From Escherichia coli (GTDB taxonomy: Bacteria; Pseudomonadota; Gammaproteobacteria; Enterobacterales; Enterobacteriaceae), in the NCBI GenBank assembly GCA_002099625.1, contig GCA_002099625.1_4857.1: a stretch of 64,000 nt of DNA. One strand, 5' to 3'. Both the position numbers and the translations under genes were made by a program. Positions 32,280 through 49,660 of the stretch are shown here, piece after piece. The notes under the pieces were generated by a model. That model made no database searches, was not told the origin of the DNA, and saw only the letters and a list, made by a program, of their open reading frames with translations. Every line of letters starts with the position of its first letter. The first letter of the stretch is position 1.

Positions 32280-33930
32280 GTGATTTCCTTACAACGTAGG
32301 GGGATGTCGCGATACGGAACGACAATACGACATCCTTGAGTGATTTCTGGCGGGCATTCAGGTAATTGCAATGCTTCGGTACGTTATACGCATGGAATAA
32401 CCACACCGTTGGGTCTATTTCACCCCATTCGTTGTGGAGAATCTTACGTGGACGACCGGCCATCTGTTCGTTCAGTTGCTGGTCTTCTACCGGGGTTGAA
32501 ATGTACATGTGTACCAACCCAGGTTTATCGACCGCAGTCCCCGCTTTCCCCGGTGTGGAGATAGAGAAGTCTGCTTGGATAAAGTCGTCATACGAATCGC
32601 CTGCATTATATTTCGCCACCATCAACGGATGGAATACAGGGTCACGCGATAACTTATCTTTCACATACTCGGTAAAGAACTCACACATCGCTACCGTAGC
32701 AAAGAGTATCAAACATTTTTGGCCAGGTTGATACCGTTTAAGGAACGATTTCTCAACCACATCCCAGATCATGTTCGCGTATTCTAAATGCAAGTTCTCT
32801 TTAATCAGCTTCCCTTCGAAGAGTTTGTGGTTATACGGCGTCATCTTCGACGCCCACCACGCAAACTTCTTATCATCCAGTCGATAGTACAACGCCTTCA
32901 CGTCAACCACCGGAATGATTGGAATACTGATTCGGTACTCCATTGGGAAACGTTCTAAATACCGCTCCGCGATAAAGGCTTTACTGCTACCCGGCTTAAG
33001 GGTTGCAGACATCTCTATCGATGCCGGAGGGTTCAACATTATACCAGCCATGTAAACGAGGTGAAAATGCTCGTGCACCTCATCCATCGCCACCAGACCC
33101 ACACCCAGAACATCATAAAACGTATCCAGGTCCACAGGGTTAGTCGCAGCAGTGTTAATGTACTCCTTCAGGAAACGCTGTAGAGAGACCGTGGGGAGGA
33201 TTATTACCTTAATACCACGACTATCTAACTCTCCCGACTTACCCATCTCCAGCGCGTCGTAAATCGCCTGTACGCCTGTACAAACTAACACCTCGTCACG
33301 AAGTATACGAAGTCCTGTTTCATCATCACAGACGTCAAACAGCCATTTGGGAACGTACGACGGACGGTGAATCAATGCGGTACGGGTTCCCCGTTTAACC
33401 ATCGACTTCATACACGACTTCGTCTTCCCACGACCTGTCTGAATGGCGAAGATTGTCTGTGGTCGGTTTGGATCGGACGCTGCATCCACAACCTCGTTCT
33501 GATAGTAGAAACGCGACTCCGGATCGCTTTCTACCATCGAGAAGCCGTAGTTATCAAATGTACAGCAGTAAGGTGTTCCTCGCTCAGGATGGTGCTCTGT
33601 CAGCTTGTACTGAAAAGCATATTCAATTGCTGCTCGTTGGAGGATATGTTTAATCTTCTCAGCGAACACTTTATGGAAAATGAACGTCCTTAAAGACGGA
33701 ATGTGGGCGTAGTACGCGTCACCGCGTTCCGTAGTTATTCGTCCATGTTGCTTGCCCATCTTTGGGGCGTGCATATTCTCTTCGGCCCACGCGAGTATGG
33801 CCCTTTCAGCCTGGCGGATAGGGACTTCAACCCGTACCCCCATACTCGTGTAAGTCATTTGAATTTCTACCATGCTGCCCCTCTTCGCACAAAAAAAGAG
33901 GGGCGCAAGGCCCCTCGGTTTACAACTCAA
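32167..33930 (-). CDS. SF2 (DEAH-type) helicase
   Basis: 587 aa; Walker A-like IQTGRGKTKS, motif II VAMDEVHEHFH, motif III-like MSATLKP. Confidence 0.7.
   Translation of the reverse strand: MSCKPRGLAPLFFCAKRGSMVEIQMTYTSMGVRVEVPIRQAERAILAWAEENMHAPKMGKQHGRITTERGDAYYAHIPSLRTFIFHKVFAEKIKHILQRAAIEYAFQYKLTEHHPERGTPYCCTFDNYGFSMVESDPESRFYYQNEVVDAASDPNRPQTIFAIQTGRGKTKSCMKSMVKRGTRTALIHRPSYVPKWLFDVCDDETGLRILRDEVLVCTGVQAIYDALEMGKSGELDSRGIKVIILPTVSLQRFLKEYINTAATNPVDLDTFYDVLGVGLVAMDEVHEHFHLVYMAGIMLNPPASIEMSATLKPGSSKAFIAERYLERFPMEYRISIPIIPVVDVKALYYRLDDKKFAWWASKMTPYNHKLFEGKLIKENLHLEYANMIWDVVEKSFLKRYQPGQKCLILFATVAMCEFFTEYVKDKLSRDPVFHPLMVAKYNAGDSYDDFIQADFSISTPGKAGTAVDKPGLVHMYISTPVEDQQLNEQMAGRPRKILHNEWGEIDPTVWLFHAYNVPKHCNYLNARQKSLKDVVLSFRIATSPYVVRKSHAHSAASSRAAATLHRNDFSKFSRKHSKGVSRRRRRR
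33888..33920 (-). terminator. intrinsic terminator after the beta'-C gene
   Basis: hairpin GAGGGGC-GCAA-GGCCCCTC preceded on plus by ACAAAAAAAG. Confidence 0.55.
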
Positions 33931-36025
33931 TTACCACAGCGGCTCCTAGGTCATCGTACAACGATGCCGGGATTTTGTACTCGGTATAAAAACCAACGCG
34001 ATCGATATTCCCCTGCTGTCCTTCAAACAACAACATCGGAATTGCCGAGCGCAAACTAATGAGCGTGTTGTGATCGACAAACCGTTTCCCGGTGGCATTA
34101 GTAGAATCCTCACTGTCAAATCCTACTGCCGGGAACGGATTGGTTGGCGACTCTACACGAGATATCGCCAACATAATCGCAATATGCGTCATCGGTATAC
34201 CACTCAGCTTACGCTGGATATACTTAAACGTGTCCATCAACGCATAAGTACACTGTTTCTCTGTAGCACCACCCATCTCAACCAACGTCACTGGTTTCAC
34301 ACGACCTTGTTTCTTGTTCAGCTTCACAGTCGATGCCGTGTTGATGATTTCCACAATGTCTTCGTTCTTATCGGCAGCAATCGAACGGAGCTTGGTTTCT
34401 AAGCCGGCTACGAACTCTGCCATCGATTCAGAACGGTTGGTGTAGACCAGGACCGGGTGTTTCGGGTTCCATCCTTTTAAGGGGATTTCTACTGTCTTCT
34501 TCTCGATACGAATGTTCGCTCGTTGTTTCAAGAAGTAGTGCAGGAACGGTTTAGAGAAGTTCCCACAAACACCCATTCGCACATCGATAGAATCCGCAGC
34601 GATTATCTGCCCATCTTCTAAACGACGTTGGAAAGTTAAGTCGGTGATTTCTGGTAATGCCGTTTCATCAATTGCATCGAGATCTTCATGATACGCAATC
34701 TGGCTCAGCTCCGAATAAATTTTGTCGGTAACAACCAACTCGTATTCTGACCAATTCCCACGCTGTGGTTTTGGCAGCAAGCACAACCCTTTCAGAGAGT
34801 TATGTTTGTATTCGGTCATATACTCACGCATACGTGGGGTGAGTACCAGGTTGAGCAGATAACGCAAGAAGTCAAGGTGCTTGGTAGAGAGAATTCCCTG
34901 TGTACCCTTTTCCGAGATGGACGTGGACGCCAGGTGACCTGGTGACGTACCTTCAGAGAGGTTATAAATCAAATCCCCCATACAGGTCGCACAGATGGAC
35001 TGATTCGCCATCTCTTTACAGGTCATGGCACTACGGAAGACCAGCGGTTTGCCAACCAGGTCTGCGTATCCACCTTTCTCAAATCTCAACCACGGACCAT
35101 TATCGCCTTCTAAACGATAACGCATCCCCACCATCGCTTTATAGGCACGCTCATCCAGCTGCGTATCCTTAAACGTGTAGCGGTGTGCGTGAGTTGTACC
35201 GCAGTCGTCGTACGTGAAATACATCAGTACGTTTGCTGCCAACTGCAGTTTACGTGAGGCGTATTCTGCTTCGGCAATCTTGTCAGTGTTGTACAAGTGG
35301 GAACGTGAAGTTGCACCGGATTCTTTCAAACGCGAAATAACCGAGTGCATTCCGGTAAAGAAGCCTTCCCACACCTGATTGGTGTATACACGTGAGTCAA
35401 TTTCTGACGTTTTACCACGCACGAAGGCTTGCAGTACCTGGTTCATCTTCACAGTACCGTCCAGTACCGACATCACGACCGGGTTATACCGTAGCGCAGG
35501 GTCTTTGAAGATTTTCTCGATAAGCTTGTACGCTTCTTCAACCATATCCTGACCATCTTCATCGTAGCCAGTAGGGTATTGCACTTCCCACTGACGGATG
35601 AGTTCGAAGTTCGGGTGGTCGTAGATCTCCATCATCGTATCAAAGTCGATTGTCGTACAATAGGACAGCAAGTTCTTCACTGTCATGTTGAACGCATCGG
35701 CGTAGACATGTTGACTCAGGATATAACGCGTTTCAGCAAGGTCGACACCTGCTTTACGGGCCAGTACCGCTGCTTCCGACATAAAGTCCAGATGCAGGTC
35801 ATCTGTTGCTACCTGACCTGGACGATACGCCATGGTCGATGGAGTGGGCACCTGCGGATACAGACGCGACACACCCCAATACGGCCAGCTGAGTTTGATG
35901 TGGCGACTAGACATTTCCAACGACTTACCATCGTCGAATGTCACGTAATAACGCCCGCGTAGTTTCCACACCTGATCAGAGTTAAGCATACGCAAATCAC
36001 GTACGTGTACAGAACGACCCGCCAT
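33920..36025 (-). CDS. multisubunit RNA polymerase beta'-like subunit, C-terminal fragment
   Basis: 701 aa; RSAMTCKEMANQSICATCMGDLIYNLSEGTSPGHLASTSISEKGTQGILSTKHL resembles the bacterial beta' segment RSV.TC...GVCA.CYG.DL...SIGEPGTQLTMRTFH; no DFDGD motif, so not the N-terminal half. Confidence 0.65.
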   Translation of the reverse strand: MAGRSVHVRDLRMLNSDQVWKLRGRYYVTFDDGKSLEMSSRHIKLSWPYWGVSRLYPQVPTPSTMAYRPGQVATDDLHLDFMSEAAVLARKAGVDLAETRYILSQHVYADAFNMTVKNLLSYCTTIDFDTMMEIYDHPNFELIRQWEVQYPTGYDEDGQDMVEEAYKLIEKIFKDPALRYNPVVMSVLDGTVKMNQVLQAFVRGKTSEIDSRVYTNQVWEGFFTGMHSVISRLKESGATSRSHLYNTDKIAEAEYASRKLQLAANVLMYFTYDDCGTTHAHRYTFKDTQLDERAYKAMVGMRYRLEGDNGPWLRFEKGGYADLVGKPLVFRSAMTCKEMANQSICATCMGDLIYNLSEGTSPGHLASTSISEKGTQGILSTKHLDFLRYLLNLVLTPRMREYMTEYKHNSLKGLCLLPKPQRGNWSEYELVVTDKIYSELSQIAYHEDLDAIDETALPEITDLTFQRRLEDGQIIAADSIDVRMGVCGNFSKPFLHYFLKQRANIRIEKKTVEIPLKGWNPKHPVLVYTNRSESMAEFVAGLETKLRSIAADKNEDIVEIINTASTVKLNKKQGRVKPVTLVEMGGATEKQCTYALMDTFKYIQRKLSGIPMTHIAIMLAISRVESPTNPFPAVGFDSEDSTNATGKRFVDHNTLISLRSAIPMLLFEGQQGNIDRVGFYTEYKIPASLYDDLGAAVVIEL

Positions 36026-38262
36026 TATTTATCCTCCCGAATTGGACGCACTAATTCAAAACCTTCACAGCGATGGATGTTACGTATCATCCTGTCAATC
36101 TGCGAATCACCCATTGGTAGTTTCTTACGATCGACCAGCACCCCTGGATTGGTTGGTGTTGGCGAGTTATACAGCCCCGTTACGATCGCACGGTGTACCG
36201 CTGGGTTATTAGCGCGGTCATGAGTTTCGGGGAAGTTGCCCGGACCAAAGCCGTCGGTAAGACGCTGCTCGGAAGGACCACCCCACTTCAACCCTTTCAG
36301 GTTAATCGGATATGAACCACGTCCTTGGTTGGATGCATCAATACAACCCAAATAGTTCGTGTACATCGACGAGATACTGGAGAACTCACGACCGGTTTTA
36401 TCCAGGCGCAGAGTCTCTACCATGCCGACGTAGAACTGGTTCTTCGTCCACTCTTTCTCACCCTGATAGTTAGTAATCAGTAGCTTAGACTTGCGTGGTG
36501 CATACTCGCCTAGAGCACGGCAGATTTCTACCTGGGTGGCATTCAATTCGTGGGGAAGCCAGATACGAATCGTGAAGTCGTAAATCTCTTTAAAGAGTTC
36601 CAGACGTGACCCAGTATCCGGGTGACTGGCATTGAGATAGAATGTCCAGCGTGGGTTATAGCGATCGATATAGTCCATCAGGATTTCCCAGGCTTCATCA
36701 ACCTGGTTGGCGGCAAGTAATGGTTTCAACCGCATCTTCAACTGCTCGGATGCAGCAGACCAATACATGTGGAACAGCGCAGCATAAGTCGAACGACGAA
36801 TTACGGCGTTCATGGAACGAATGACATGCACACGTTCTCCGAACTCGTTAATCGGCATTTCTTCATCAGGCCGCACTGCGCCCACGATACCTTTTGTACC
36901 TGAACGGTCGGTGATTTTCGATGAGACGGTAACTGGGATTGGATAACGTACCACGATGCGTATCGTGTAACTACCAATTGGGTCCCAGAGACCACGCTGA
37001 ACCGGCTGCGCCAGTTTGTTCAACACGTTCTTATCAGCAGAACGGTTATACTCGCCTTTGCGCATGGCTTCATCGTATTCACGACCAATCTCTTCACGGA
37101 AGTCGTTATAGACTTCATACGTCTCAGAACAGAACGCCTTGTCGAGAATCTCAAACGCTTTCGGTGACCAGACAATATTCTTGTCCTTGGACATCGCAAA
37201 ATAGAACCGCACGATATCATTGTAAAAACGTTTCAAAGCGTTCGCGTAGTGATCTAACTCGCGTTTGTTCTCTTCGGTACATGCGATATTGTTAACACCA
37301 CGATCGCATTTGGTTTCGTCCCGCCATACCTGAATATCAACGACACGAGAACCAGTACGTTCCATCTTTTCAAAGTCGCCAGCCTGACGCGCTTTGTAAT
37401 GCTCAGGGTCGGCATCAACATACTCACAACGGTCGAAGTGCGGAGAGATATGTTGTGTTTCGCCCACGTGTGAGTCAATAGCCGCCCACAGCTTATCGAA
37501 ACGACGCGCGGCTATAACCAACCCATCATCGCGAATTGCCTGTCCTTTATTGGGCAGGTACTGTGGTCGACGAACGCCATCAATACCCGTTGTCCCATAC
37601 GTATCAAGCAGGTACTCGTCGTCGCGCAAGGTAAAGTCGATTGCACGCAAACCATAAGCGTGCATCGCCTTCGCTGCAGTTTCGGAGATGGTGTACGAGT
37701 CCTCGATAATGTCCGGGTGCGACATTGTCACAGTGTGCAGGTTGACCCCATCGACAAACTCACCGTCTTTCTGTGCCGGCAGCACGGTAAGCATTTCATC
37801 TTTTTCCAGGTGCTGAGTCTGCCCGCGCAGCAACGCCTGAAGTTTCCCAGTAGCCTCTTTCTTAGACGAGAAAATGTTATCGTGGTTGGTGTAATACTTG
37901 ATATCGATTACATCAATCATCACTTTGCGCTGGTTGGTTAAATCTGCGCGCGTGAAGAAGATAACATGTTGGAGCGGATCGTGATCCCCTTCACGACCAT
38001 AGCGTGCAAAAACAGCTGCACGAGTAACACCTTCTTTGGTTGTGTAACTGCACACGGTACCACTATCTTCCACGATATCGTTAAAACAATAATCGTGGTA
38101 GTTCACATCAGCGCCGGTAAAATGGATAGTCGGGTCTGGATTGTCCAGTGGTACCGCCGACTTCATATGTCCACCCACCATTGAGGCACGTGCCCCAGAT
38201 ACGCCAGTGATATTCACCTCACGGTCAGCAACGCTTGACATGAGTTCGACTGGTGTTTTCAT
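36025..38262 (-). CDS. multisubunit RNA polymerase beta-like subunit (C-terminal two-thirds)
   Basis: 745 aa; DRSGTKGIVGAVRPDEEMPINEFGERVHVI resembles the bacterial beta active-site segment GRHGNKGVISKI.PIEDMP; start overlaps the stop of the beta'-C gene. Confidence 0.65.
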   Translation of the reverse strand: MKTPVELMSSVADREVNITGVSGARASMVGGHMKSAVPLDNPDPTIHFTGADVNYHDYCFNDIVEDSGTVCSYTTKEGVTRAAVFARYGREGDHDPLQHVIFFTRADLTNQRKVMIDVIDIKYYTNHDNIFSSKKEATGKLQALLRGQTQHLEKDEMLTVLPAQKDGEFVDGVNLHTVTMSHPDIIEDSYTISETAAKAMHAYGLRAIDFTLRDDEYLLDTYGTTGIDGVRRPQYLPNKGQAIRDDGLVIAARRFDKLWAAIDSHVGETQHISPHFDRCEYVDADPEHYKARQAGDFEKMERTGSRVVDIQVWRDETKCDRGVNNIACTEENKRELDHYANALKRFYNDIVRFYFAMSKDKNIVWSPKAFEILDKAFCSETYEVYNDFREEIGREYDEAMRKGEYNRSADKNVLNKLAQPVQRGLWDPIGSYTIRIVVRYPIPVTVSSKITDRSGTKGIVGAVRPDEEMPINEFGERVHVIRSMNAVIRRSTYAALFHMYWSAASEQLKMRLKPLLAANQVDEAWEILMDYIDRYNPRWTFYLNASHPDTGSRLELFKEIYDFTIRIWLPHELNATQVEICRALGEYAPRKSKLLITNYQGEKEWTKNQFYVGMVETLRLDKTGREFSSISSMYTNYLGCIDASNQGRGSYPINLKGLKWGGPSEQRLTDGFGPGNFPETHDRANNPAVHRAIVTGLYNSPTPTNPGVLVDRKKLPMGDSQIDRMIRNIHRCEGFELVRPIREDK

Positions 38263-38328: not shown

Positions 38329-38652
38329 ATGCTAGATAAATTTGCTACCTTATCCGAAATAATACCTTCGCCTGATTCGACCAAGTATAAGGTGTTGCAT
38401 GACTATACAGACTTCCTTCGCAAACACCCAGATACTACAGAAGAAGTTGTTGACCCAAAATATGCCTACCCAGAGGTACACAGTTTCTACGCGTACTGTC
38501 GTCTCAAACAGTACGATAATAGTATTATTTATCCGATGATGTTAATGAACGGAATTTCTACTCCGTTTGATTTCACGCCAGAGATAAGGACCTTATTGGT
38601 TCCTAGTGTCGGTGTGGTAAGTAACATCTTATCGACTATCGTAGAATCTTGA
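38329..38652 (+). CDS. hypothetical protein
   Basis: 107-aa ORF with AAGGAG SD, followed by a terminator. Confidence 0.6.
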   Translation: MLDKFATLSEIIPSPDSTKYKVLHDYTDFLRKHPDTTEEVVDPKYAYPEVHSFYAYCRLKQYDNSIIYPMMLMNGISTPFDFTPEIRTLLVPSVGVVSNILSTIVES

Positions 38653-38689: not shown

Positions 38690-40057
38690 TTAACGTAAAT
38701 TAGCTGATGAGAATGGTAGGTTGCCTAAACTGCTGCTACTTCCGCCACCTAAACCACCCAGACCACCTAACACGTCACTACTCCCTCCTAAGAGGTTGGT
38801 GCTACCGCCGCCCAACTGCGTGCTACCCCCCAAGAGATTATTACTACTTCCCAGCAAACCAGAACCCAGACCACTTTCTTTCGTCACCGCATTACCACGC
38901 AGCGCCTCACCGAGAGACAGTTCTTTAATTGTCCCTTTCGGTAAATGGCCGTTGTTCTCACGCAGCGCTTCCTGAATCTTCGGTGCTAACGCATTGAAGC
39001 TATTAGCTGAAGACGCCTGTTGCGCTTTCTTCGCACGGAAATAGTTTACCGGATCGTTGAGATCAAGATTTTCCTGCGGAGCTTGTTGAGAAGCTAAAGC
39101 AACGACCGGCTTTGTGCCGGCAGGTGTACGCCCGATACGGAAATCCGTTGCGGTGGTGTCTGTTGCCTGATCGGTGCGTGGGCCGGTATTATACGGCAGA
39201 GTTTGGATAACGTTATCATAAACGCTCATGTTATCCAGTTGGCCAATCCATTCTTCTTCTAACGGACGCAGTGGAGTGTGGTCACGCAGACCACGAACCA
39301 CTTGATTGTAGTTGGTCACGTATTGTGCCCAACCGCGTGCCAAAGAACCGAAGTACGGACGCGGATCGTTAGAACCCGTAACCGAAGGATACCAACCAAA
39401 CACTGCAGTGAGCAGGTTAAAGATAATGACCTTATCCTGCTTACGCTGGAGCTTGGCACCGAAGAATGTTGCCGTACCATCCAGCGACTCTTCTTCAAAC
39501 ATGTGTTTGTAGTTCGCCACACGGATATATTTGATACCTTCAATGGTCATATCGCTGGAGATGAAGATACTGGTGATCTTTGTCTTTTTATCTTCTTCCA
39601 GCAACCCGTAAACGTAGTTCTTCACTGCGTGCCAGCTCTGAACCAGTTTCTTATCCATCGTTGGATCTTTCAGGTCAGCACAAACCACATCGCTTAAAAA
39701 CTTCTTGTACGCTGCCAGACGGATATTTTTTCCTTCGGCTGCTGTTTCCAAAATCGCATCGATTAACTCGAAGCTTTTCAGGAAGAGGTTCGCGTTGATG
39801 GCTTTCTTCAGGAAACGAATCGTTCCAGATTCGCCAGCCAGTACCGATTCACACAGTGGGTGGAACGCATGACATTCACTACCTTCGTCATCTTCCAACC
39901 CACGCTTAATCATCGCTGCAGTTGGAAGCACCAAGCGGCGCTTCACTTTGTTGTAGGTGAACATTGCCGGATGACCATCATCGATAGTCAGCATGTCACC
40001 TTCGAATCCGTATCCGAGCGAGGTCAGAAACGAACGGTAGAATTCAATCAATTTCAT
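38690..40057 (-). CDS. hypothetical protein with Gly/Leu/Ser-rich low-complexity C-terminal tail
   Basis: 455 aa; C-terminal ~60 aa GLGSGLLGSSNNLLGGSTQLGGGSTNLLGGSSDVLGGLGGLGGGSSSSLGNL. Confidence 0.65.
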   Translation of the reverse strand: MKLIEFYRSFLTSLGYGFEGDMLTIDDGHPAMFTYNKVKRRLVLPTAAMIKRGLEDDEGSECHAFHPLCESVLAGESGTIRFLKKAINANLFLKSFELIDAILETAAEGKNIRLAAYKKFLSDVVCADLKDPTMDKKLVQSWHAVKNYVYGLLEEDKKTKITSIFISSDMTIEGIKYIRVANYKHMFEEESLDGTATFFGAKLQRKQDKVIIFNLLTAVFGWYPSVTGSNDPRPYFGSLARGWAQYVTNYNQVVRGLRDHTPLRPLEEEWIGQLDNMSVYDNVIQTLPYNTGPRTDQATDTTATDFRIGRTPAGTKPVVALASQQAPQENLDLNDPVNYFRAKKAQQASSANSFNALAPKIQEALRENNGHLPKGTIKELSLGEALRGNAVTKESGLGSGLLGSSNNLLGGSTQLGGGSTNLLGGSSDVLGGLGGLGGGSSSSLGNLPFSSANLR

Positions 40058-40069
40058 GGTTAATAATCC

Positions 40070-41770
40070 TTAATCAATGAGACCGTTGCCGAGTCCGTTT
40101 CCGCCTATACCGCCTAAGCCACCACCCAGGTCAAGACCTCCAAGAGGATCTAAGCCACCTGTGTTAGTTGGAATGTTAGATAGCATTCGACCCCGGCCTT
40201 GGCCTTTCTCGAATTCTGTATAACCTTCTTCCACGGCTTTCAACAGCGTTGCGGTGTTCTGTGCCAGCTCACCAACGTATTTGAGATCGGTGGTGTTGCC
40301 GGTATGGAGACGGAATTGCATAAACGACGCGTAGGTGTAATATTCCAGCGGTTCGTCGTCGACACGGATTTCAATACGAGTAACGGTCCCCAACAATGCG
40401 GTGACCAGCATGTGGCAGCGAATATGGTTATGTTTAGTAACCTGAACCATCGCTTCTTTCATGTTCTGCAAGAAACGACGACCTAATGCAGCAGGTAACT
40501 GATGGTGCGTGATGCTGCTGACTGAGTTAGGAATAACTTCCAACGTAGGCTCTATCATGATATCTGTGTTGCGGTTATCAAAGACAAAGCTCACTTCACC
40601 AATCAGGTTACGTGACATAATCGGCCCGATAGACATAGCCAGATCATACGCAACTAGACTACCCTGCGTGGAGAAGCCATTACGTCCAATCCAGTGGTCG
40701 GTTTGGTTAACCAGCCCTGCACCCAACCCACGGCGACTTGCCAGCGCCAGCGATTCACGGATACATTCATCCAACCGCATTGGGTTGACAATCGCATTAC
40801 GCAAATCAGCCAAACGGAACGTCGCCTTACTGGTTGCTTTCCAACCGCCAGATACATCAGACATCCCGTTCTGGAGTGCTTGACGCATCGCAGCAATCAG
40901 TTCGTGGTTGCTGTAGTTACGGATAACACCACGCTGCTTCAATTCAGATTCAACGCCGATGGAGTTATTACCTGCAAAGAAGCTTTCCACGCTACCGAGT
41001 TCGGTATCTACCCCAGAGCTTGCCAGATACGCATTACTGATGGCAGATACGTAGTTTTCTGGACGCTGGAGTTGGGATACCATCAACTGTGGTGCAGAGC
41101 TACTGGTTGCGGATAGCACAGAGTCGCTCGTTGGGACGAACTTCTCACCGCTATTCATTTCAATACGTTTTACCATGTCCGCTGCTTTCGCGATCGAAAT
41201 GATATCTACCGTACTTTCTGTTTGACCTTCAACAGACAGCGCTTTCGATAAAACGTAGTTATCCAGTAGACGGAATGAGTCTGGGTTCAATGTTTTGCCG
41301 CCCAGGGCATCGTGTGTATACGTTGCCTGTAAGCCGTAGATGTCGTTAATGTACAACACCATATCGTCCGGCAGCAGGCTACCCAGGCTGGTTTCTGCCT
41401 GACTGGTATAACCGGATACGATGTATTGCGTTTCCTGAGTGCGTGTTGCATTCAGAGGTTTAGCAATAAACACCGCCACGAAGTTAAAGATACCGGTATC
41501 ACGTGATTCCCATTGGAACTGTACAGGACGATTGTCATCATCGGACACGTTGATGAATGGACGCTCAAAACCATTCTGGGTGCCATCGAAGCCCACGATG
41601 GCAGATAATGCTTCTTGATACTGCTGTGTTCCCACAGCTTTTTCCCCGCCCAGTTCAACCGCTGCTGCTAAGTCATCCAGTGCACCCGTCGATGCGTTAA
41701 AGCCGATGCGGCGACGAACTTGCTCTGGAACATCGTAGACCGGATACATCAGTAGATTTACAAGCTGCAT
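40070..41770 (-). CDS. hypothetical protein with Gly-rich C-terminal tail
   Basis: 566 aa; C-terminus NTGGLDPLGGLDLGGGLGGIGGNGLGNGLID. Confidence 0.65.
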   Translation of the reverse strand: MQLVNLLMYPVYDVPEQVRRRIGFNASTGALDDLAAAVELGGEKAVGTQQYQEALSAIVGFDGTQNGFERPFINVSDDDNRPVQFQWESRDTGIFNFVAVFIAKPLNATRTQETQYIVSGYTSQAETSLGSLLPDDMVLYINDIYGLQATYTHDALGGKTLNPDSFRLLDNYVLSKALSVEGQTESTVDIISIAKAADMVKRIEMNSGEKFVPTSDSVLSATSSSAPQLMVSQLQRPENYVSAISNAYLASSGVDTELGSVESFFAGNNSIGVESELKQRGVIRNYSNHELIAAMRQALQNGMSDVSGGWKATSKATFRLADLRNAIVNPMRLDECIRESLALASRRGLGAGLVNQTDHWIGRNGFSTQGSLVAYDLAMSIGPIMSRNLIGEVSFVFDNRNTDIMIEPTLEVIPNSVSSITHHQLPAALGRRFLQNMKEAMVQVTKHNHIRCHMLVTALLGTVTRIEIRVDDEPLEYYTYASFMQFRLHTGNTTDLKYVGELAQNTATLLKAVEEGYTEFEKGQGRGRMLSNIPTNTGGLDPLGGLDLGGGLGGIGGNGLGNGLID

Positions 41771-41782: not shown

Positions 41783-43417
41783 TTAAGAATTAAACCATTC
41801 AACTTCTTCTAACTTGCGACGTGCATTCAACACCATAAACTCCGCCAGGCTATTGTGCAGTGACAAGTGAGGTATATAGTTTGGCTGATCCGTCTCACAC
41901 TTCAGCAGCGCAGCTGCTTCTGGTGTAGCCCTGAGATGGAACAGATACGGGTTGATGTGATCCTTGTGTAACAAGGTCAGTGATTCCCGTGGTGTAGATT
42001 GCGGTTCGAGATTACGCGGGTTGCGATACTCCTGAAGATAATATCTATCTAAATCTGCTTTGAGTTCAGATCGAATTGGGTCGGCTGCATAACCGGCAGA
42101 CATCTCAGAACGCACCATATTGCAACTTAACAGTTGCGCAACGTCATACATTCCATAATTGAGATAAGTTGCCTGTGCCAACGCCATACCGTAGCGAAAC
42201 GCTTCTGGCCCACATTCAGTATACGTCTTATAATGCGCGCTACGATGGAGTGCTAATGCGACTAACCATTCGTGCAACGTATAGACAGGACCGTCATGTG
42301 TTGCCAGTTGCGAATCAATCAATAACTTAACATCTGCTGGAGCGGCATTATCCAGACGCATTGTTTTCAAGAAAGAGCGGTATTCTTTAAATACGTACTC
42401 GGTACGGACGTATTCTTTCATCTGTGCAGGAGAACGTGCCTGCACCAAATCCATGGCGTTTATCTTACCCTTTTCGCCATTGAATACCACACTTTCCGGA
42501 TGCGCTTTTAACAGCACCGGCTGGTTAGAGATTTTGTTTGCAAAACCTGTTTCAATCTCTTGTTTAACCAGAAAATACATGCCGGTGACGATATTGTTGT
42601 TAACCATGATTTCAACCGGTAATTCACCACCGACTTCACGGACAGCCAACAATTTAATAATAGCATACGCCAGGATATAATCTTCCATCATATCCGTGCC
42701 ATAGCCCCGCACCGTAGCCAGTACCGACAAACTGGTGCTGTTCGTACCTTTGTTTGCCAGTTCTTTTTCTACCTTTTCCATCACTGTCTGTAGGAACCCA
42801 CGCAGTTTCGGAATAGCAGGTAAAGACATGACTTCCGTGTCTTGAAGCATCTCCAGACAGTATGTCAGATTGTACACCATTTTCCGGTGTGTTTCGATTG
42901 GCAAGTTCTTACCTATCGGGAACGTCCCCATGGTGAGGAACACCGGAATATACGGTTTAATCATCAGAACCAGTATCAACAACTCGTAATAGTCCGGACG
43001 AATGTACGTCATCGCTTCCGGATAATTACTGTTCATTTCATCGTGCGTATCTTCCATGTTCTGCGGAATCCACAGCTTATCGATGGGATACAGCTTACGA
43101 TACACTTCGGCCTTGTGGAACTTCGCAATCGTCTGCACAATCTTCGGCATGTGCTTACGCTGCGTTTCCGTCGATTCGTTTGCCAGCTCGTCCAGCATCA
43201 GATACGCCATGAACAGTTCATCTTGTTCGTCTGGCGTTAAATAATCCCACACGCGTTGTAATTCCATGAAGAGAATGTTGTCGCGTGCAATCTGTTTACC
43301 TTTAACAGTGATGTAGTCGGGTGCGTTGTTATCCTTCCGATAACGTAAGCCAATAAATGTGACCTCTTGACCGTGATGCTCGATTGTCATCCGGTCTTTA
43401 ATCTTCGTAATTTTCAT
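41783..43417 (-). CDS. hypothetical protein
   Basis: 544-aa ORF, first gene downstream of a promoter-like element. Confidence 0.65.
   Translation of the reverse strand: MKITKIKDRMTIEHHGQEVTFIGLRYRKDNNAPDYITVKGKQIARDNILFMELQRVWDYLTPDEQDELFMAYLMLDELANESTETQRKHMPKIVQTIAKFHKAEVYRKLYPIDKLWIPQNMEDTHDEMNSNYPEAMTYIRPDYYELLILVLMIKPYIPVFLTMGTFPIGKNLPIETHRKMVYNLTYCLEMLQDTEVMSLPAIPKLRGFLQTVMEKVEKELANKGTNSTSLSVLATVRGYGTDMMEDYILAYAIIKLLAVREVGGELPVEIMVNNNIVTGMYFLVKQEIETGFANKISNQPVLLKAHPESVVFNGEKGKINAMDLVQARSPAQMKEYVRTEYVFKEYRSFLKTMRLDNAAPADVKLLIDSQLATHDGPVYTLHEWLVALALHRSAHYKTYTECGPEAFRYGMALAQATYLNYGMYDVAQLLSCNMVRSEMSAGYAADPIRSELKADLDRYYLQEYRNPRNLEPQSTPRESLTLLHKDHINPYLFHLRATPEAAALLKCETDQPNYIPHLSLHNSLAEFMVLNARRKLEEVEWFNS
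42035..42049 (-). promoter_or_regulatory. intragenic copy of the conserved promoter-like element
   Basis: AGATAATATCTATCT inside the coding region of gene 41783-43417. Confidence 0.3.
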
Positions 43418-43552: not shown

Positions 43553-44206
43553 TTAGAGGAATTCGTCGTAAGAATCAGTGGTTGCTGGAGGTGCAGATTG
43601 TTGCTGTTGATAACCGCCGCTACGCTGACCGCCACCCTGGCCACCGCCGTATCCGCCACGACCGAAGCTACCACCACCTTGCTGGAATTCACGCGGCTTA
43701 TATTTCTCTTCCAGGTTCTGTAAGAACTTCTCGAAGTTAGTGATAAACGCACGTGCACAGCGCTCAGCAAGTTCTAAATCAGAAACCTGCTGGCCGTCGC
43801 GGAAAATACGGAAACCTTTCGGGTAGGAGAAGTAGAACTTCTTCTGGCGGGCACCAACGCCCTGGATTTCACCGGCAATAGCGATGAACGGTACCAGGTT
43901 GTCTTCACGGCCAACAATCAGACTAACGGGCGGTTTGTTGCCGTTTTCGTTAGTAAACTTCAGCATACTCTTTTCGCTCTTACGCAGACAATCCTGCAGA
44001 GCTTCGATAATGGTACGGCAAACCGTAATCGGCGCAGAGAAATAGAGACCTTCGCCCTTACCAAAGGAGTAGCTAAACTTCATAGTTTCAACATCACCGT
44101 TGAAATCATTCGGTTCGATGTTGAGTTTACGCGTACGGTTTTGCTGATCCGGTTCGGTCTGCGGGTAAAGCCATTTGTCTTTGAAAATTTCTTGGTTAAT
44201 CATCAT
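43553..44206 (-). CDS. putative single-stranded DNA-binding protein
   Basis: track ORF 43553-44245, probable start at internal MMINQ with AAAGGA SD; C-terminal tail GGGSFGRGGYGGGQGGGQRSGGYQQQQSAPPATTDSYDEFL (Gly/Gln-rich with acidic tip, as in SSB proteins); OB-fold not verified. Confidence 0.35.
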   Translation of the reverse strand: MMINQEIFKDKWLYPQTEPDQQNRTRKLNIEPNDFNGDVETMKFSYSFGKGEGLYFSAPITVCRTIIEALQDCLRKSEKSMLKFTNENGNKPPVSLIVGREDNLVPFIAIAGEIQGVGARQKKFYFSYPKGFRIFRDGQQVSDLELAERCARAFITNFEKFLQNLEEKYKPREFQQGGGSFGRGGYGGGQGGGQRSGGYQQQQSAPPATTDSYDEFL

Positions 44207-44271
44207 TTCATCCTTTTCGGAAAAGCAGTCTAGTGGTTCACACATGATGTCCCACTAACGTAAATTTTAAC

Positions 44272-47974: not shown

Positions 47975-48247
47975 TTAGCCCATCACCGCTTCCAACGGAA
48001 TGCCTTCTTCATCATCCTCATCTGCTTCAATAAGGAACTGGTTCTGCATACTGATTAGCTCGTTATGTAAAACCATGCCGTGTTCTACGCGGTCCACATC
48101 AGTAGAAGACATAAAGCCGTTATCTGGACGGAATTGGAGCGCCAACTTCATCTCAGTTTCATCGACTGGCAAACGTACCTGGAACTGGTCGCCATCAAAA
48201 TCCTGTTTGTCCACTCCAATCCTTTTGGAGCAGGTGTGTAGTAACAC
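47975..48247 (-). CDS. RNA polymerase beta'-N, exon 2 (carries the catalytic DFDGD motif)
   Basis: translation ...LLHTCSKRIGVDKQDFDGDQFQVRLPVDE... matches bacterial beta' ...[24 protein letters not shown]; track start is GTG with no properly spaced SD, consistent with a spliced exon. Confidence 0.65.
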   Translation of the reverse strand: MLLHTCSKRIGVDKQDFDGDQFQVRLPVDETEMKLALQFRPDNGFMSSTDVDRVEHGMVLHNELISMQNQFLIEADEDDEEGIPLEAVMG

Positions 48248-48249
48248 CC

Positions 48250-49660
48250 TCCCTAACTTTCATTAGGGCACAGACCATACCTTAGCCATGAGCTTTCGCT
48301 TTTAGGCTCCTCCCCACTTCGGCGCTATTCTAAGCACCTACGAGCATTTCAGCTCCGGTCGTTGAACGTTCCTCTTACGAGGCTTCGCTGCTGATTACCC
48401 ATTGTTAAAACCCTTAGCAGTATTGTTTAGCATAGGTCATCTCATTACTTGTTTCCGACTTTCGTCTCCACATGGGCAAATGAGCTTTAGGGGTTCCCAG
48501 CAATTCAGGGAGATACACATCAGAGGTTTCCCGTCTGATGGGGCAAGGTTATTCTGCTGTTAAATATTGAACTTCAAATTGTTTGTACTTTCCAGTTTGT
48601 GAGACTGCTTTGGCCACAGTGTTTCTTTTCACACCAATCGCGTTTGAAAACTCTTGTAGAGAATTCCAAATGGTTTTGATATTAGTGGTCGTATCAGTCA
48701 CACGCACCATCGATGGTACACGTTTTGGCATTTGTGATTGTGGTCTGGGTTTGCGGAGATCGATCATGTCGGTTATGGCAACATCGATATCCACCATATA
48801 CCACGCCTCATATCCAAACTTAGTCAAATCGACGGTACCGCCGTTGAGGTGAGAATAGATGAGGTGTGGTTTTATACCCACGTATTCGGCTGCTGCCGGT
48901 ACAGACGAGAACAGGAAATATGGTTCCTTACCAACCTTTCTGATGACCAGTCCTTTATTACCTGGTCCTGAGTTCTTGCCAATAGAATTCTTGGTGAGAA
49001 TCCAGTCGTCTGCCGGTAGCTTGACTTCAAACACATCATTTAGCGTGTATTGACGATTAAGTCCACGCGTGATCGAGCTTGAAACCAAGTGCCGATTAAC
49101 GCCGATATACTCAGCTGCCTTAGCCATGCTACGGAACTGAACTATATCGCCGGTCTCGAGATTTCTGACATCGACAATAATGTTGTCAGTTCTTAGACCA
49201 GTATCGAAAGCATGATTAACATTTTCCTTTCGATAACACCACTCAAGGTTTACCACAGATGGATTACTCTTAACACCATCACGATGGTTAACCTCGTCAC
49301 CACATTTATCCAGGAACACAGTCGCAACAATTCGATGTAAATGGGTTTCGTCTTTACAACCGCGCACTCCCAGGTATCCACTTTTGAGAATGAAGACCGG
49401 TAGCGGCATGACCATACCTTTTACTTTACAGTCACCCAATGCATCAACAAAGAGATCACGATAGACTGGGTGTCTGTAATACCCCTTAAAAACATACGAG
49501 GGCTCTAAATCATCGCGTAGTTTCCTACTCAACTTTTCAATAATCACAATTTATTCCCTATTACCAGTCACCGACTAAGAATAAGGAATAGCAGAATAAC
49601 ACTTTTACCGTTAGCCATCTTGATCACACGGTCAGAGATACGCAGCGAACACTGGTTAAC
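48250..49660 (-). mobile_element. putative group I intron with embedded HNH homing endonuclease, interrupting the beta'-N gene (boundaries approximate)
   Basis: conserved beta' sequence is interrupted between ...NPTLVQLSIQ... (exon 1) and ...DFDGDQ... (exon 2); between them an HNH ORF and ~300 nt of hairpin-rich non-coding sequence (48250-48548). Confidence 0.55.
48549..49547 (-). CDS. HNH homing endonuclease with NUMOD-like DNA-binding repeats
   Basis: 332 aa; HNH motif ETHLHRIVATVFLDKCGDEVNHRDGVKSNPSVVNLEW; three repeats of the type AAEYIGVNRHLVSSSITRG / AAEYVGIKPHLIYSHLNGG / FSNAIGVKRNTVAKAVSQTG. Confidence 0.85.
   Translation of the reverse strand: MIIEKLSRKLRDDLEPSYVFKGYYRHPVYRDLFVDALGDCKVKGMVMPLPVFILKSGYLGVRGCKDETHLHRIVATVFLDKCGDEVNHRDGVKSNPSVVNLEWCYRKENVNHAFDTGLRTDNIIVDVRNLETGDIVQFRSMAKAAEYIGVNRHLVSSSITRGLNRQYTLNDVFEVKLPADDWILTKNSIGKNSGPGNKGLVIRKVGKEPYFLFSSVPAAAEYVGIKPHLIYSHLNGGTVDLTKFGYEAWYMVDIDVAITDMIDLRKPRPQSQMPKRVPSMVRVTDTTTNIKTIWNSLQEFSNAIGVKRNTVAKAVSQTGKYKQFEVQYLTAE

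What the first reader, a model, noticed from the sequence alone, without database searches (positions are those of the whole stretch)
38690..41770. Two adjacent proteins with glycine-rich low-complexity C-terminal tails, directly upstream of the RNAP genes
Gene 38690-40057 ends with ~60 residues of GL/GS/LLGG repeats and gene 40070-41770 ends with GGLDPLGGLDLGGGLGGIGGNGLGNGLID. The N-terminal globular parts are not obviously related. Flexible Gly-rich tails on consecutive genes next to the transcription machinery are unusual and could mediate multivalent or mesh-like interactions. Function is unknown.
Basis: seen in the sequence. Interest (0 to 1): 0.5.

Follow-up and report, generated by a model that had tools for sequence, protein, structure and literature searches.

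The report
Matching sticky tails on phage-nucleus proteins
The two genes are a jumbo phage's nuclear import factor (PicA/Imp1) and a neighbouring nuclear-shell protein, and their floppy glycine-rich tails carry a phage-specific "sticker" motif shared with the shell protein chimallin, probably an address or adhesion code for the phage nucleus that has not been described.

Summary
The window is a SPN3US-like Salmonella/E. coli jumbo phage. Gene 40070-41770 (gp31) is the orthologue of PicA/Imp1, the essential importer of the phage nucleus. Gene 38690-40057 (gp32) is the orthologue of PhiPA3 gp64/phiKZ gp70, a nuclear-shell-associated protein of unknown function. Neither is a tail fibre or an RNAP accessory. 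Both tails are predicted disordered, nearly uncharged, and built of Leu/Ile "stickers" in Gly/Ser/Asn spacers.

All 125 retrieved gp32-family proteins have such a C-terminal domain, but the sticker residue changes by clade (L, F, M, Y/W, or an R/D-rich version). Some orthologues carry FG, NPF or xLFG repeats that resemble FG-nucleoporins.

The sticker type changes together, in the same genomes, in five places: the PicA tail, the gp32 tail, both termini of chimallin (ChmA) and a fourth protein, gp78. The ChmC tail and the folded domains do not follow.

The best reading is a phage-specific shell-addressing or cohesion code that imitates chimallin's own docking tails. A nucleoporin-like barrier is possible but unproven. 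I found no paper describing this.

The parts
40070..41770 (-). gp31 (566 aa): orthologue of PicA/Imp1 (phiKZ gp69, PhiPA3 gp63, Goslar gp174), the essential selective protein importer of the phage nucleus
   Evidence: 100% identical to SPN3US_0031 / YP_009153325. That accession is listed as the PhiPA3 gp63 homologue in PMC10643120. hhalign against known PicA/Imp1 proteins: probability 97.5%, E 6.9e-12, 453 columns. Conserved gene order. PHROG 3141.
40073..40159 (-). gp31 C-terminal tail, residues 538-566: disordered L/I-Gly sticker tail GGLDPLGGLDLGGGLGGIGGNGLGNGLID
   Evidence: pLDDT below 40. 14 G, 9 L/I, 8 sticker clusters. A tail is present in all SPN3US-like orthologues after a conserved SNIPT motif, with a clade-specific sticker.
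38690..40057 (-). gp32 (455 aa): orthologue of PhiPA3 gp64 / phiKZ gp70 / Goslar gp173, a nuclear-shell-associated protein of unknown function
   Evidence: About 99.5% identical over residues 1-394 to SPN3US_0032 / YP_009153326. That accession is listed as the gp64 homologue in PMC10643120. tblastn reaches pVa-21 (1e-17), Phabio (3e-10), Goslar gp173 (1e-8) and phiKZ-like phages (5e-7). PHROG 3520, 3e-134.
39182..40057 (-). gp32 folded N-terminal domain (residues 1-~292), alpha/beta, with no informative structural relative
38876..39181 (-). gp32 linker (residues ~293-394), mostly disordered with three weak helices
   Evidence: pLDDT 36-78; helices at 336-349, 359-367 and 382-386.
38693..38875 (-). 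gp32 C-terminal low-complexity domain, residues 395-455: 12 Leu stickers in G/S/N spacers (LLGG, LGG, GLGG)
   Evidence: pLDDT below 40. Composition and spacing. An equivalent domain is present in 125 of 125 family members.
43553..44245 (-). gp29: orthologue of ChmC/Imp6 (RNA-binding Whirly protein). Its tail has its own G/Q/Y/R-rich grammar plus an acidic-aromatic tip (…DSYDEFL). It serves here as the internal control because it does not follow the sticker switches.
   Evidence: YP_009153323 is listed as the PhiPA3 gp61 homologue. The ChmC disordered tail drives condensates (PMC11077065). The tail does not co-vary.
41783..43417 (-). gp30: orthologue of phiKZ gp68 by gene order, a non-virion RNAP subunit (sigma-like). 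It lies between ChmC and PicA.
   Evidence: Gene order matches phiKZ, Goslar and SPN3US. PHROG 3209. Role of gp68 and PMC13282480.
51057..52910 (-). Chimallin (ChmA, 617 aa), the nuclear shell protein. Its N-tail carries APLGGLG and its C-terminal segment reads …SGNGLSASGSDFGLGVSLSNFKL.
   Evidence: It equals SPN3US_0022 = RefSeq ACQ60_gp244, which Laughlin et al. 2022 named the SPN3US chimallin homologue (PMC9365700). It sits in the diagnostic position between the DNA polymerase and the first nvRNAP beta gene. Sequence-only links to solved chimallins were weak.
33920..38262 (-). The two large non-virion RNAP subunit genes (beta-like 36025-38262, beta'-like 33920-36025), downstream of the pair
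   Evidence: Pfam RNA_pol_Rpb2_6 and Rpb1_5; PHROG RNA polymerase beta subunit.
38329..38652 (+). Small conserved opposite-strand gene (gp33, 107 aa) between gp32 and the RNAP genes; function unknown
   Evidence: PHROG 3455. A gene in the same position and orientation is present in Goslar (gp172), RAY, Phabio, PA1C, Noxifer, pVa-21 and Proteus phage 10.

Best explanation
gp31 is the phage-nucleus importer PicA/Imp1. gp32 is the conserved nuclear-shell-associated protein of the PhiPA3 gp64 / phiKZ gp70 family. Their Gly-rich tails are intrinsically disordered, almost uncharged sticker-and-spacer modules: a hydrophobic residue every 3-5 positions in a G/S/N/Q matrix. I propose that they act as a phage-specific shell-addressing and cohesion code. 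The same short motifs occur in the flexible N- and C-terminal segments of chimallin, and chimallin's terminal segments are known to build the lattice by docking onto neighbouring protomers. By presenting chimallin-like motifs, PicA (about 8 stickers), gp32 (about 12) and gp78 would be held on or in the chimallin lattice and against each other. That would concentrate them at one site, the single import punctum described for PicA. What is shown here: the identities of the genes, the disorder and grammar of the tails, the conservation of the feature, and the co-variation. What is inferred: that co-variation reflects physical contact, with chimallin grooves or tails, with each other, or both, and that this contact localises or clusters the proteins.
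For: Identity: plus PMC10643120, the bioRxiv preprints 10.1101/2024.03.27.586873 and 10.1101/2024.03.21.585822, and PMC9365700. Published localisation: PhiPA3 gp63 and gp64 localise to the shell, were recovered in ChmB pull-downs, are expressed early and are not in virions. [quoted passage not shown] Disorder. Conservation under constraint: in 125 family members the last 70 residues are 3.5% charged against 24% in the N-domain, and 70% G/S/N/Q/P/T/A against 38%, with 12.4 +/- 2.2 sticker clusters. Co-variation of the PicA and gp32 tails within genomes: mean-centred composition similarity is 0.39 for matched genomes against -0.01 for mismatched (p = 5e-5 with 35 or 21 clade representatives; p = 0.02 with 12). 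The ChmC tail and the folded domains used as controls are not significant. There are at least three independent concurrent switches on the tree: two L<->F and one to R/D. Whole motifs are shared, for example Caitlin (loci L015/L038) SGNSILD and SGNSILG. Chimallin follows the switches: the aromatic-versus-aliphatic index of the ChmA C-tail against the PicA tail gives rho 0.94 (n = 14) and 0.92 (9 clade representatives, p = 4e-4). The ChmA N-tail motif is APLGGLG in L-type phages, APSFGGVG in F-clade 1 and GFSVG in F-clade 2. ChmA and PicA have near-identical tips in L042 (SSFNF and DSFNF) and L044 (NSFTL and DNFTL). Fifth carrier: the internal segment of gp78 follows the code in 17 of 17 genomes, including both F-clades, and shares motifs with gp32 (RLGGLGG, SLLGGG). 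Across the whole family the last 3-5 residues of PicA and the gp70-family protein match within genomes (p = 5e-5, and still about 1e-3 with 8 deep clades; the ChmC control is not significant). It is not recent gene conversion and not DNA slippage. It is not set by the host: E. amylovora ATCC 29780 supports both L-type and F-type phages. Chimallin's terminal segments dock on neighbouring protomers and are needed for self-assembly.
Against: No binding was measured here, so everything after 'co-variation' is inference. In E. coli co-expression, phiKZ gp70 did not co-purify with Imp1. This argues against a stable 1:1 complex, though weak multivalent contacts would be lost in such an assay. That paper lists phiKZ gp70 among nuclear rather than shell proteins. 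In SPN3US itself the three extreme tips differ (ChmA NFKL, PicA GLID, gp32 ANLR), so tip mimicry holds only in some lineages. In Pseudomonas phages the shared PicA/gp64 tip (LGL[LIV]) is not the chimallin tip (…GFY and …TWY), so the receptor there must be something else, possibly ChmB. PicA of Goslar, RAY and Proteus phage 10 has no low-complexity tail, so the PicA tail is not needed for import in every lineage. The permutation tests only partly control for phylogeny. The rank correlation of the gp32 index with the ChmA and PicA indices is not significant (rho 0.4-0.5) because the gp32 index is bimodal. The sticker motif in the ChmA N-tail lies in the region that was dispensable for 201phi2-1 chimallin assembly.
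Confidence: 0.5

Rival explanations
1. Nucleoporin-like selective barrier. The gp32-family C-terminal domain forms a cohesive hydrophobic-sticker mesh, the functional analogue of FG-nucleoporin domains, in or around an opening of the chimallin lattice. PicA carries cargo and passes or partitions into this phase through its own matching tail, so the tails belong to the translocation step rather than only to anchoring.
For: The grammar resembles cohesive FG domains (comparison from own knowledge): low charge, G/S/N/Q/T spacers and regularly spaced hydrophobic stickers. Many orthologues carry FG, GFG, SFGG, NPF or xLFG repeats, for example P0005, P0031, Phabio 'QGLFGAQP…TLFGNT…SLFGGP', and P0125 'PTLFGQP…SMFGQPQQLF'. 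The sticker can be exchanged among F, L, M, Y and W while spacing and charge depletion are kept, as expected for a material property rather than a lock-and-key site. The whole tail grammar co-varies in PicA, even in the R/D-type clade. PicA forms a single punctum and import occurs at one site; the physical route through the shell is unknown.
Against: No pore containing gp32 has been seen. The SPN3US tails are Leu-Gly, not Phe-Gly. One tail of 60-150 residues per protein is short compared with nucleoporin FG domains. Chimallin itself carries the motif, which fits lattice docking better than a pore plug. The R/D-type tails of pVa-21/L023 follow a different physical principle. phiKZ gp70 was scored as nuclear, not peripheral. 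There is no homology to nucleoporins.
Confidence: 0.18
2. The low-complexity stretch is only a flexible spacer. The functional element is a short C-terminal docking peptide (the last 3-6 residues) that PicA and the gp70-family protein both insert into one receptor pocket, on ChmB, ChmA or another hub protein.
For: The tips match strongly and significantly within genomes across deep clades: DDII/GDII, SGSL/TGSL, DSGLL/DSGRL, LGLL/LGLL, LGLV/LGLV. 113 of the 125 gp70-family proteins end in a hydrophobic residue (L, I, W, V, F or M). gp63 and gp64 were both recovered in ChmB pull-downs in PhiPA3, and ChmB is restricted to the Pseudomonas phages in which the LGL[LIV] tip is found.
Against: It does not explain why the whole repeat region is charge-depleted and keeps about 12 stickers, nor why internal motifs co-vary. 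It does not explain why gp78 carries the code internally. In SPN3US-like phages, including this window, the PicA and gp32 tips do not match (6 representatives, not significant).
Confidence: 0.17
3. There is no specific function. The tails are tolerated low-complexity appendages such as entropic bristles or solubility tags, and their similarity within a genome reflects lineage-specific mutational or compositional drift acting on all low-complexity regions.
For: The sequences are not alignable between clades, low-complexity regions evolve fast, and Leu<->Phe is a single-nucleotide change.
Against: The domain is present in 125 of 125 family members over very deep divergence. The ChmC low-complexity tail in the same operon and genome does not follow the switches, and neither do the folded domains. 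There are no DNA repeats. The same host carries both types. The C-terminal tips match at single-residue level.
Confidence: 0.08
4. One reading: the tails mediate contacts with the non-virion RNA polymerase encoded next door, for example recruiting or tethering RNAP at the shell.
For: The genes are interleaved with nvRNAP subunit genes. gp78, the other carrier, is encoded next to another putative RNAP-subunit gene. nvRNAP import requires Imp1 according to the abstract of the 2026 preprint 10.64898/2026.09.21.753271.
Against: No RNAP subunit in the window carries the motif. Published cargo recognition by PicA uses folded surfaces of PicA and of the cargo, not terminal peptides. The co-variation partner identified here is chimallin, not RNAP.
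Confidence: 0.05

Closest known systems
PicA / Imp1 (phiKZ gp69, PhiPA3 gp63, Goslar gp174), protein importer of chimalliviruses
   Same: gp31 is a true homologue (hhalign 97.5%, E 7e-12) in the same gene position and in a chimallin-encoding phage. It has a large folded body with no relatives outside the family.
   Different: The SPN3US-like clade adds a 30-50-residue Gly-rich sticker tail. Goslar, RAY and Proteus phage 10 lack it, and in Pseudomonas phages it is replaced by a Q/P-rich stretch ending in …DLGL[LV]. I found no description of any of these tails in the accessible papers.
PhiPA3 gp64 / phiKZ gp70 / 201phi2-1 gp126 / Goslar gp173, a nuclear-shell-associated protein of unknown function
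   Same: gp32 is a homologue with the same position and the same two-part architecture: a folded N-domain of about 290 residues, a linker, and a low-complexity C-terminal domain.
   Different: The sticker residue is Leu in this phage. It is Met in phiKZ, PhiPA3, RAY and Psa21; Phe in the Phabio group, Derbicusvirus and F-clade 1; Tyr/Trp in others; and an Arg/Asp repeat in pVa-21. The universality and grammar of this domain appear not to have been reported.
ChmC / Imp6 C-terminal disordered region (PMC11077065)
   Same: It is a disordered, Gly-rich C-terminal tail on a shell-associated protein of the same gene block, and the ChmC tail is shown experimentally to drive condensate formation. This is the precedent for functional disordered tails at the phage nucleus.
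   Different: The ChmC tail is N/G/Q/Y/R-rich with an acidic tip and acts together with an RNA-binding Whirly domain. It keeps this grammar in all clades and does not take part in the L/F/M switches.
Chimallin NTS/CTS1/CTS2 docking segments (PMC9365700)
   Same: They are short hydrophobic motifs on flexible linkers at protein termini that bind neighbouring shell subunits. The chimallin termini in this clade contain the same sticker motifs and switch together with the PicA, gp32 and gp78 tails. In L042, L043 and L044 the PicA tip nearly copies the chimallin tip.
   Different: Chimallin has two or three defined segments, whereas gp32 has about 12 degenerate repeats. Binding of non-chimallin tails to chimallin grooves has not been shown. 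In Pseudomonas phages the tips differ from those of chimallin.
Eukaryotic FG-nucleoporin domains (GLFG, FxFG, PSFG types); comparison from own knowledge
   Same: Both are disordered, charge-poor and G/S/N/Q/T-rich with regularly spaced hydrophobic stickers. Some orthologues have literal FG or xLFG repeats. Both are associated with a selective nucleus-like boundary.
   Different: There is no homology. The tails are much shorter. The sticker is often Leu, Met or Tyr rather than Phe. No pore scaffold or transport-receptor interaction is known. This is an analogy only.

Membership tests
PicA / Imp1 family (for gp31) | Sequence homology to phiKZ gp69 / PhiPA3 gp63 / Goslar gp174 | tested here: met
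   hhalign A7 against A10: probability 97.5%, E 6.9e-12, 453 collinear columns. jackhmmer from gp31 reaches PhiPA3 gp63 and 201phi2-1 gp125. Plain tblastn did not reach them. YP_009153325 is listed as the homologue in PMC10643120.
PicA / Imp1 family (for gp31) | Position in the conserved block: after the gp68-like nvRNAP subunit, before the gp70-like gene and the nvRNAP beta/beta' genes, in a chimallin-encoding genome | tested here: met
   The gene order is the same in phiKZ, Goslar, SPN3US, RAY, Phabio, Psa21, PA1C, Noxifer, pVa-21 and Proteus phage 10. Chimallin lies at 51057-52910.
PicA / Imp1 family (for gp31) | Essential for selective protein import; forms a punctum at the nuclear shell | not testable with these tools
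   Shown for phiKZ, PhiPA3 and Goslar in the literature, not for SPN3US-like phages.
PhiPA3 gp64 / phiKZ gp70 family (for gp32) | Sequence homology of the N-terminal domain | tested here: met
   Single-sequence tblastn: pVa-21 1e-17, Phabio 3e-10, Goslar gp173 1e-8, phiKZ-like 5e-7. PHROG 3520, 3e-134. A profile search finds 205 family members, including PhiPA3 gp64 and 201phi2-1 gp126. YP_009153326 is listed in PMC10643120.
PhiPA3 gp64 / phiKZ gp70 family (for gp32) | Localisation to the nuclear shell, early expression, absence from virions | not testable with these tools
   Reported for PhiPA3 gp64. phiKZ gp70 was listed as 'nuclear'. There are no data for SPN3US gp32.
PhiPA3 gp64 / phiKZ gp70 family (for gp32) | C-terminal charge-poor low-complexity domain (a feature proposed here) | tested here: met
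   Present in 125 of 125 members. The window protein has 61 residues with 2 charged.
FG-nucleoporins | Multiple Phe-Gly motifs in a disordered, low-charge domain | tested here: not met
   The window tails contain one Phe in all; the stickers are Leu/Ile. Orthologues in F-clade 1, Derbicusvirus and the Phabio group do have FG, NPF or xLFG repeats.
FG-nucleoporins | Homology to, or anchoring in, a nuclear-pore scaffold; binding of transport receptors | tested here: not met
ChmC-type RNA-condensate tail | N/G-rich disordered region followed by an S/D/E acidic tip, attached to an RNA-binding Whirly domain | tested here: not met
   gp29 has this architecture (tail …GGYGGGQGGGQRSGGYQQQQ…DSYDEFL). 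gp31 and gp32 have no acidic tip, a different grammar and unrelated folds.
Tail-fibre / collagen-like structural proteins | G-X-Y periodicity or a fibre fold; presence in virions | tested here: not met

The most novel reading that the evidence does not exclude
Chimalliviruses have evolved, independently of eukaryotes, a nucleoporin-like system. A shell-anchored protein family (gp64/gp70/gp32) would have a cohesive hydrophobic-sticker disordered domain that forms the selective phase of the import/export site. The importer PicA, the shell protein chimallin and other factors such as gp78 would carry matching stickers, giving each phage lineage a private, co-evolving 'nuclear pore code' (L, F, M, Y/W or R/D). 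That code could also isolate co-infecting phages from each other's nuclei.
Probability: 0.15. Interest if true: 0.95.

Novelty: new variant of a known kind. Interest (0 to 1): 0.68.

Why it matters
How proteins cross the chimallin shell is the main open question about the phage nucleus. The importer PicA/Imp1 is known, but neither a pore nor the way it is held at one site has been found. These results single out the uncharacterised gp64/gp70/gp32 family. They also give a concrete, sequence-encoded handle: a lineage-specific sticker motif shared by the importer, a shell-associated protein, the shell protein itself and a fourth protein. Direct experiments follow: tail deletions, L-to-F tail swaps between related phages, peptide binding to chimallin, and co-condensation assays. 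If the tails are an address code, they could explain how minor components are woven into the lattice and why import is species-specific. They could also offer a tag for targeting proteins to the shell. If they form an FG-like phase, this would be a striking case of convergent evolution with the eukaryotic nuclear pore.

Tried and rejected
1. Tail-fibre or virion structural protein: rejected. There is no fibre fold or periodicity, and the homologues are early, shell-localised and non-virion.

2. RNAP accessory role: no support. No RNAP subunit in the window carries the motif.

3. Pfam has no family for either protein, and PHROGs lists only 'unknown function'.

5. Gene conversion between the two tails: the DNA local-alignment scores are only as long as the shared peptide motifs.

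6. Replication slippage: only a 9 bp x 2.6 trace was found.

7. A host-specified motif: rejected, because E. amylovora ATCC 29780 hosts both L-type and F-type phages.

8. The chimallin tip as the universal template for the PicA and gp32 tips: rejected for Pseudomonas phages (ChmA ends …GFY or …TWY against …LGLL) and for SPN3US itself.

9. Sequence-only proof that ORF 51057-52910 is chimallin was weak (hhalign probability 1.5%, E 0.033, although collinear). Its identity rests on the RefSeq tag gp244 named by Laughlin et al. and on its position.

10. The first attempt to fetch gp78 orthologues of F-clade 1 failed because the search patterns were too strict. It was solved by anchoring on the neighbouring RNAP-subunit gene.

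11. Literature searches for 'phage nucleus' with 'FG repeat', 'nucleoporin', or 'PicA' plus 'disordered' returned nothing relevant. The library is incomplete, so prior description cannot be excluded.

12. The exhaustive representative-protein search and the metagenome and genome collection scans were not used.

Full report
**1. What the window is**

The region is 99.5% identical to Escherichia phage EC001 and to Salmonella phage SPN3US and its relatives (Seoulvirus). These are nucleus-forming jumbo phages (chimalliviruses). The two ORFs exist exactly as described, on the minus strand. ORF 40070-41770 (566 aa) is SPN3US gp31. ORF 38690-40057 (455 aa) is SPN3US gp32.

**2. The observation**

- The gp32 tail (residues 395-455) is 61 residues long, with 19 G, 14 S, 14 L and only two charged residues. 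It has 12 hydrophobic clusters separated by 1-7 residues (mean 3.8).
- The gp31 tail (residues 538-566) is 29 residues long, with 14 G and 9 L/I.
- AlphaFold2, run with family alignments, gives confident folded bodies: gp32 residues 1-~290 have pLDDT above 90, and gp31 residues 1-~532 give pTM 0.75. Both tails have pLDDT below 40.
- The two globular parts are unrelated (hhalign probability 0.2%).
- In a scan of the window plus the rest of SPN3US, Gly-rich, low-charge sticker-spacer segments occur in only four proteins with this grammar: gp29, gp31, gp32 and gp78. The other hits in that scan were spurious antisense ORFs or weak matches in large structural proteins.
- The tail-coding DNA is not a tandem repeat.

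**3. What the genes are**

The gene order is SbcD, gp28, gp29, gp30, gp31, gp32, a small opposite-strand gene, nvRNAP beta and beta', then a helicase. This is the conserved chimallivirus block: phiKZ gp65-75 and Goslar gp178-164, and also RAY, Phabio, Psa21, PA1C, Noxifer, pVa-21, Proteus phage 10 and PhiPA3.

- **gp32.** It reaches Goslar gp173, phiKZ-like gp70 and others by plain tblastn.
- **gp31.** It does not reach phiKZ by tblastn. A profile-profile comparison with phiKZ gp69, PhiPA3 gp63, Goslar gp174 and five others gives probability 97.5%, E 7e-12, over 453 collinear columns.
- **Published homologue lists.** Enustun et al. 2023 (PMC10643120) list YP_009153323, YP_009153325 and YP_009153326 as the SPN3US homologues of PhiPA3 gp61, gp63 and gp64. 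These accessions are gp29, gp31 and gp32.
- **gp32 belongs to the gp64/gp70 family.** The PhiPA3 GFP fusion localises to the nuclear shell, the protein was recovered with gp63 in ChmB pull-downs, it is expressed early and it was not found in virion proteomes. Its function is unknown.
- **Caveats from phiKZ.** gp70 did not co-purify with Imp1 in E. coli and was listed among nuclear proteins.
- **gp29 is ChmC/Imp6**, whose N/G-rich disordered tail drives RNA condensates.
- **Chimallin.** ORF 51057-52910 is SPN3US_0022, which is RefSeq ACQ60_gp244. Laughlin et al. 2022 name that gene the SPN3US chimallin homologue.

**4. Are the tails conserved?**

They are not conserved as sequence, but they are strongly conserved as a feature. 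Across 125 gp32-family proteins from a 5.8-billion-protein collection:

| Measure | Last 70 residues | N-domain |
|---|---|---|
| Charged residues | 3.5% | 24% |
| G/S/N/Q/P/T/A | 70% | 38% |

The last 70 residues hold 12.4 +/- 2.2 hydrophobic clusters. The dominant sticker differs by clade: L in 55 proteins, M in 31, F in 24 and Y in 15. pVa-21, L023 and L024 have an Arg/Asp-rich variant.

Some members look very much like FG-nucleoporin repeats:

- P0005: 'GFGDVGGFG…SFGGGSSFGGSSFGSQPQFGSSSGFGS'
- Derbicusvirus: 'NNNPFTS…SSNPFAA…NNNPFTGGGNNNPFGG'
- Phabio: 'QGLFGAQP…TLFGNT…SLFGGP…GFGNT'
- P0125: 'PTLFGQP…AMFQQQ…PTLFGQPQQQSMFGQPQQLF'

PicA tails are clade-specific. They are present in all SPN3US-like phages after a conserved SNIPT motif. 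In Pseudomonas phages they are Q/P-rich and end in …DLGL[LV]. Goslar, RAY and Proteus phage 10 lack them.

**5. Co-variation**

- **PicA tail against gp32 tail.** Within a genome the two use the same sticker. It is L/L in SPN3US, phiEaH2, Asesino, Wellington and the Caitlin group; F/F in two separate clades; R/D with R/D in pVa-21 and L023. Whole motifs are shared: SGNSILD and SGNSILG in Caitlin (loci L015/L038), TGNSLLD and DNSLLG in L014.
- **Permutation test.** On mean-centred composition, matched genomes score 0.39 and mismatched genomes -0.01 (p = 5e-5 with 35 or 21 clade representatives; p = 0.02 with 12; not significant with 8). The ChmC tail and the folded domains show no signal.
- **Independent switches.** On a neighbour-joining tree of the folded domains, the two F-clades are separate. 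One is sister to phiEaH2/Asesino inside the L-type phages; the other is Derbicusvirus. With the R/D lineage this gives at least three independent concurrent switches.
- **Gene conversion.** Recent conversion between the tails is not the cause.
- **Chimallin follows.** Its N-tail motif is APLGGLG in SPN3US, APSFGGVG…ANAFG in F-clade 1 and GFSVG in Derbicusvirus. Its C-terminal segment is SDFGLGVSLSNFKL in SPN3US, against NSFGSDYNMSFASGNYSPV and SAFDFAQQSGYFSM in the F-clades.
- **Chimallin statistics.** The aromatic-versus-aliphatic index of the ChmA C-tail correlates with that of the PicA tail (rho 0.94, n = 14; rho 0.92, p = 4e-4, 9 clade representatives) and with that of the ChmA N-tail (rho 0.83). 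gp32 is bimodal in the same genomes. ChmC is not positively correlated.
- **Near-identical tips.** In L042 and L044 the ChmA and PicA tips nearly match: SSFNF and DSFNF; NSFTL and DNFTL.
- **A fifth carrier.** gp78 (SPN3US_0078) lies outside the window, next to the gp77 gene (PHROG 'polymerase', annotated as an RNAP subunit in Wellington). Its internal disordered segment follows the code in 17 of 17 genomes: L-G in all L-type phages, NPF in Derbicusvirus, FG/YG in F-clade 1. It shares motifs with gp32 of the same phage, such as RLGGLGG in Caitlin and SLLGGG in L042.
- **Tips across the whole family.** The last 3-5 residues of PicA and the gp70-family protein match within genomes: DDII/GDII, SGSL/TGSL, DSGLL/DSGRL, LGLL/LGLL, LGLV/LGLV. 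The test gives p = 5e-5, and still about 1e-3 with eight deep clades; the ChmC control is not significant. In SPN3US-like phages, including this window, the tips do not match.
- **Host.** E. amylovora ATCC 29780 hosts both L-type and F-type phages, so the code is set by the phage, not the host.

**6. Mechanism**

Chimallin's NTS, CTS1 and CTS2 are short segments on flexible linkers. They dock on neighbouring protomers, and deleting NTS or CTS abolishes self-assembly in vitro. The simplest account of five co-varying carriers, one of which is chimallin itself, is a shared interaction code. The tails of PicA, gp32 and gp78 would present chimallin-like stickers that hold these proteins on or in the lattice and against each other. 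That would concentrate them at one site, which would fit the single PicA punctum.

I give this a probability of about 0.5. Three alternatives are not excluded:

- the gp32-family domain forms a nucleoporin-like cohesive phase that takes part in translocation itself (about 0.18);
- only the C-terminal tip matters, as a docking peptide for a common receptor such as ChmB (about 0.17);
- the tails are functionless (about 0.08).

The main counter-evidence:

- no binding data exist;
- the phiKZ Imp1-gp70 pull-down was negative;
- the PicA tail is absent in some lineages;
- the tips do not match in SPN3US itself;
- the Pseudomonas-phage tips differ from the chimallin tip.

**7. Novelty**

The genes and their families are already known, and the SPN3US homologues are listed in a published supplementary figure. 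Several things were not found in the accessible literature:

- the universal low-complexity domain of the gp64/gp70 family and its FG-like grammar;
- the PicA tail;
- the multi-protein co-variation with the chimallin termini and gp78.

The library is incomplete, so prior description cannot be excluded. I rate this a new variant of a known kind (functional disordered tails on phage-nucleus proteins, as shown for ChmC). It leads to experiments on an open question: how proteins are positioned at, and cross, the chimallin shell.

Noticed in passing
window 48251-48579 (-), with ORF 48549-49547 (-): A group I intron (Rfam RF00028, 53.4 bits, above the gathering score, E 7e-12) and an adjacent HNH endonuclease ORF (PHROG 59) interrupt the first non-virion RNAP beta gene. 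The long part of that gene is at 49568-50974, and EC001 annotates a small 3' piece as 'beta subunit 2', at about window 47976-48215. SPN3US itself has one uninterrupted gene (gp23). phiKZ has a similar arrangement (gp55, gp56 HNH, gp56.1).
   Followed up: partly
outside the window: SPN3US JN641803 75564-77240 (SPN3US_0078); loci L079-L095: gp78 is a 558-aa hypothetical protein (PHROG 8185) specific to the SPN3US-like clade. It is encoded next to gp77, a PHROG 'polymerase' annotated as an RNAP beta subunit in Wellington. It has an internal disordered segment carrying the same clade-specific sticker motif as gp31, gp32 and ChmA: LGG in L-type phages, NPF in Derbicusvirus, FG/YG in F-clade 1. Its function is unknown; it may be a further shell or import component.
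   Followed up: partly
window 38329-38652 (+): A small gene (107 aa, PHROG 3455) sits on the opposite strand between gp32 and the RNAP genes. A gene in the same position and orientation is present in Goslar (gp172), RAY, Phabio, Psa21, PA1C, Noxifer, pVa-21 and Proteus phage 10. Such strict conservation of an antisense-oriented small gene inside an otherwise co-directional block is unexplained.
   Followed up: no
gp70-family tails of Pseudomonas-type phages (P0077-P0166; L050-L062): Inside the low-complexity domain there are two conserved short motifs, '[LM]PW[QE]QQ' and 'NP[FY][AM]xA', in addition to the C-terminal G[LM]GL[ILV] tip. This suggests discrete binding sites embedded in the repeat region.
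   Followed up: no
window 43553-44245 (-), gp29/ChmC: The ChmC tail ends in an acidic-aromatic tip in every clade: DSYDEFL here, and elsewhere FDD[FY]V, FDDII, YDEMF or DDIPF. This resembles the C-terminal tip of bacterial SSB (own knowledge) and may be a separate docking peptide.
   Followed up: no
window 29252-31222 (-): A 656-aa protein (PHROG 8054, unknown function) contains a Pro/Ala/Glu/Val-rich low-complexity segment, APEPVVEKAPAVEPAPQPKAPEAVAPAQPA. This is a different kind of low-complexity region, unrelated to the sticker code.
   Followed up: no
LR5359xx records (Salmonella phages SPFM5-SPFM15): Several SPFM genome records give fragmented, low-identity matches to gp31 and gp32 (many pieces, 50-88% identity) where the sister records are 99-100% identical. 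This looks like local sequence or assembly errors in those deposits rather than real divergence.
   Followed up: no
L047-L049 (IMG/VR contigs), ChmC orthologue: In one uncultivated clade the ChmC orthologue is about twice the usual length (465-476 aa against 210-270 aa) and lies further upstream, which suggests a duplication or fusion of the Whirly-domain protein.
   Followed up: no
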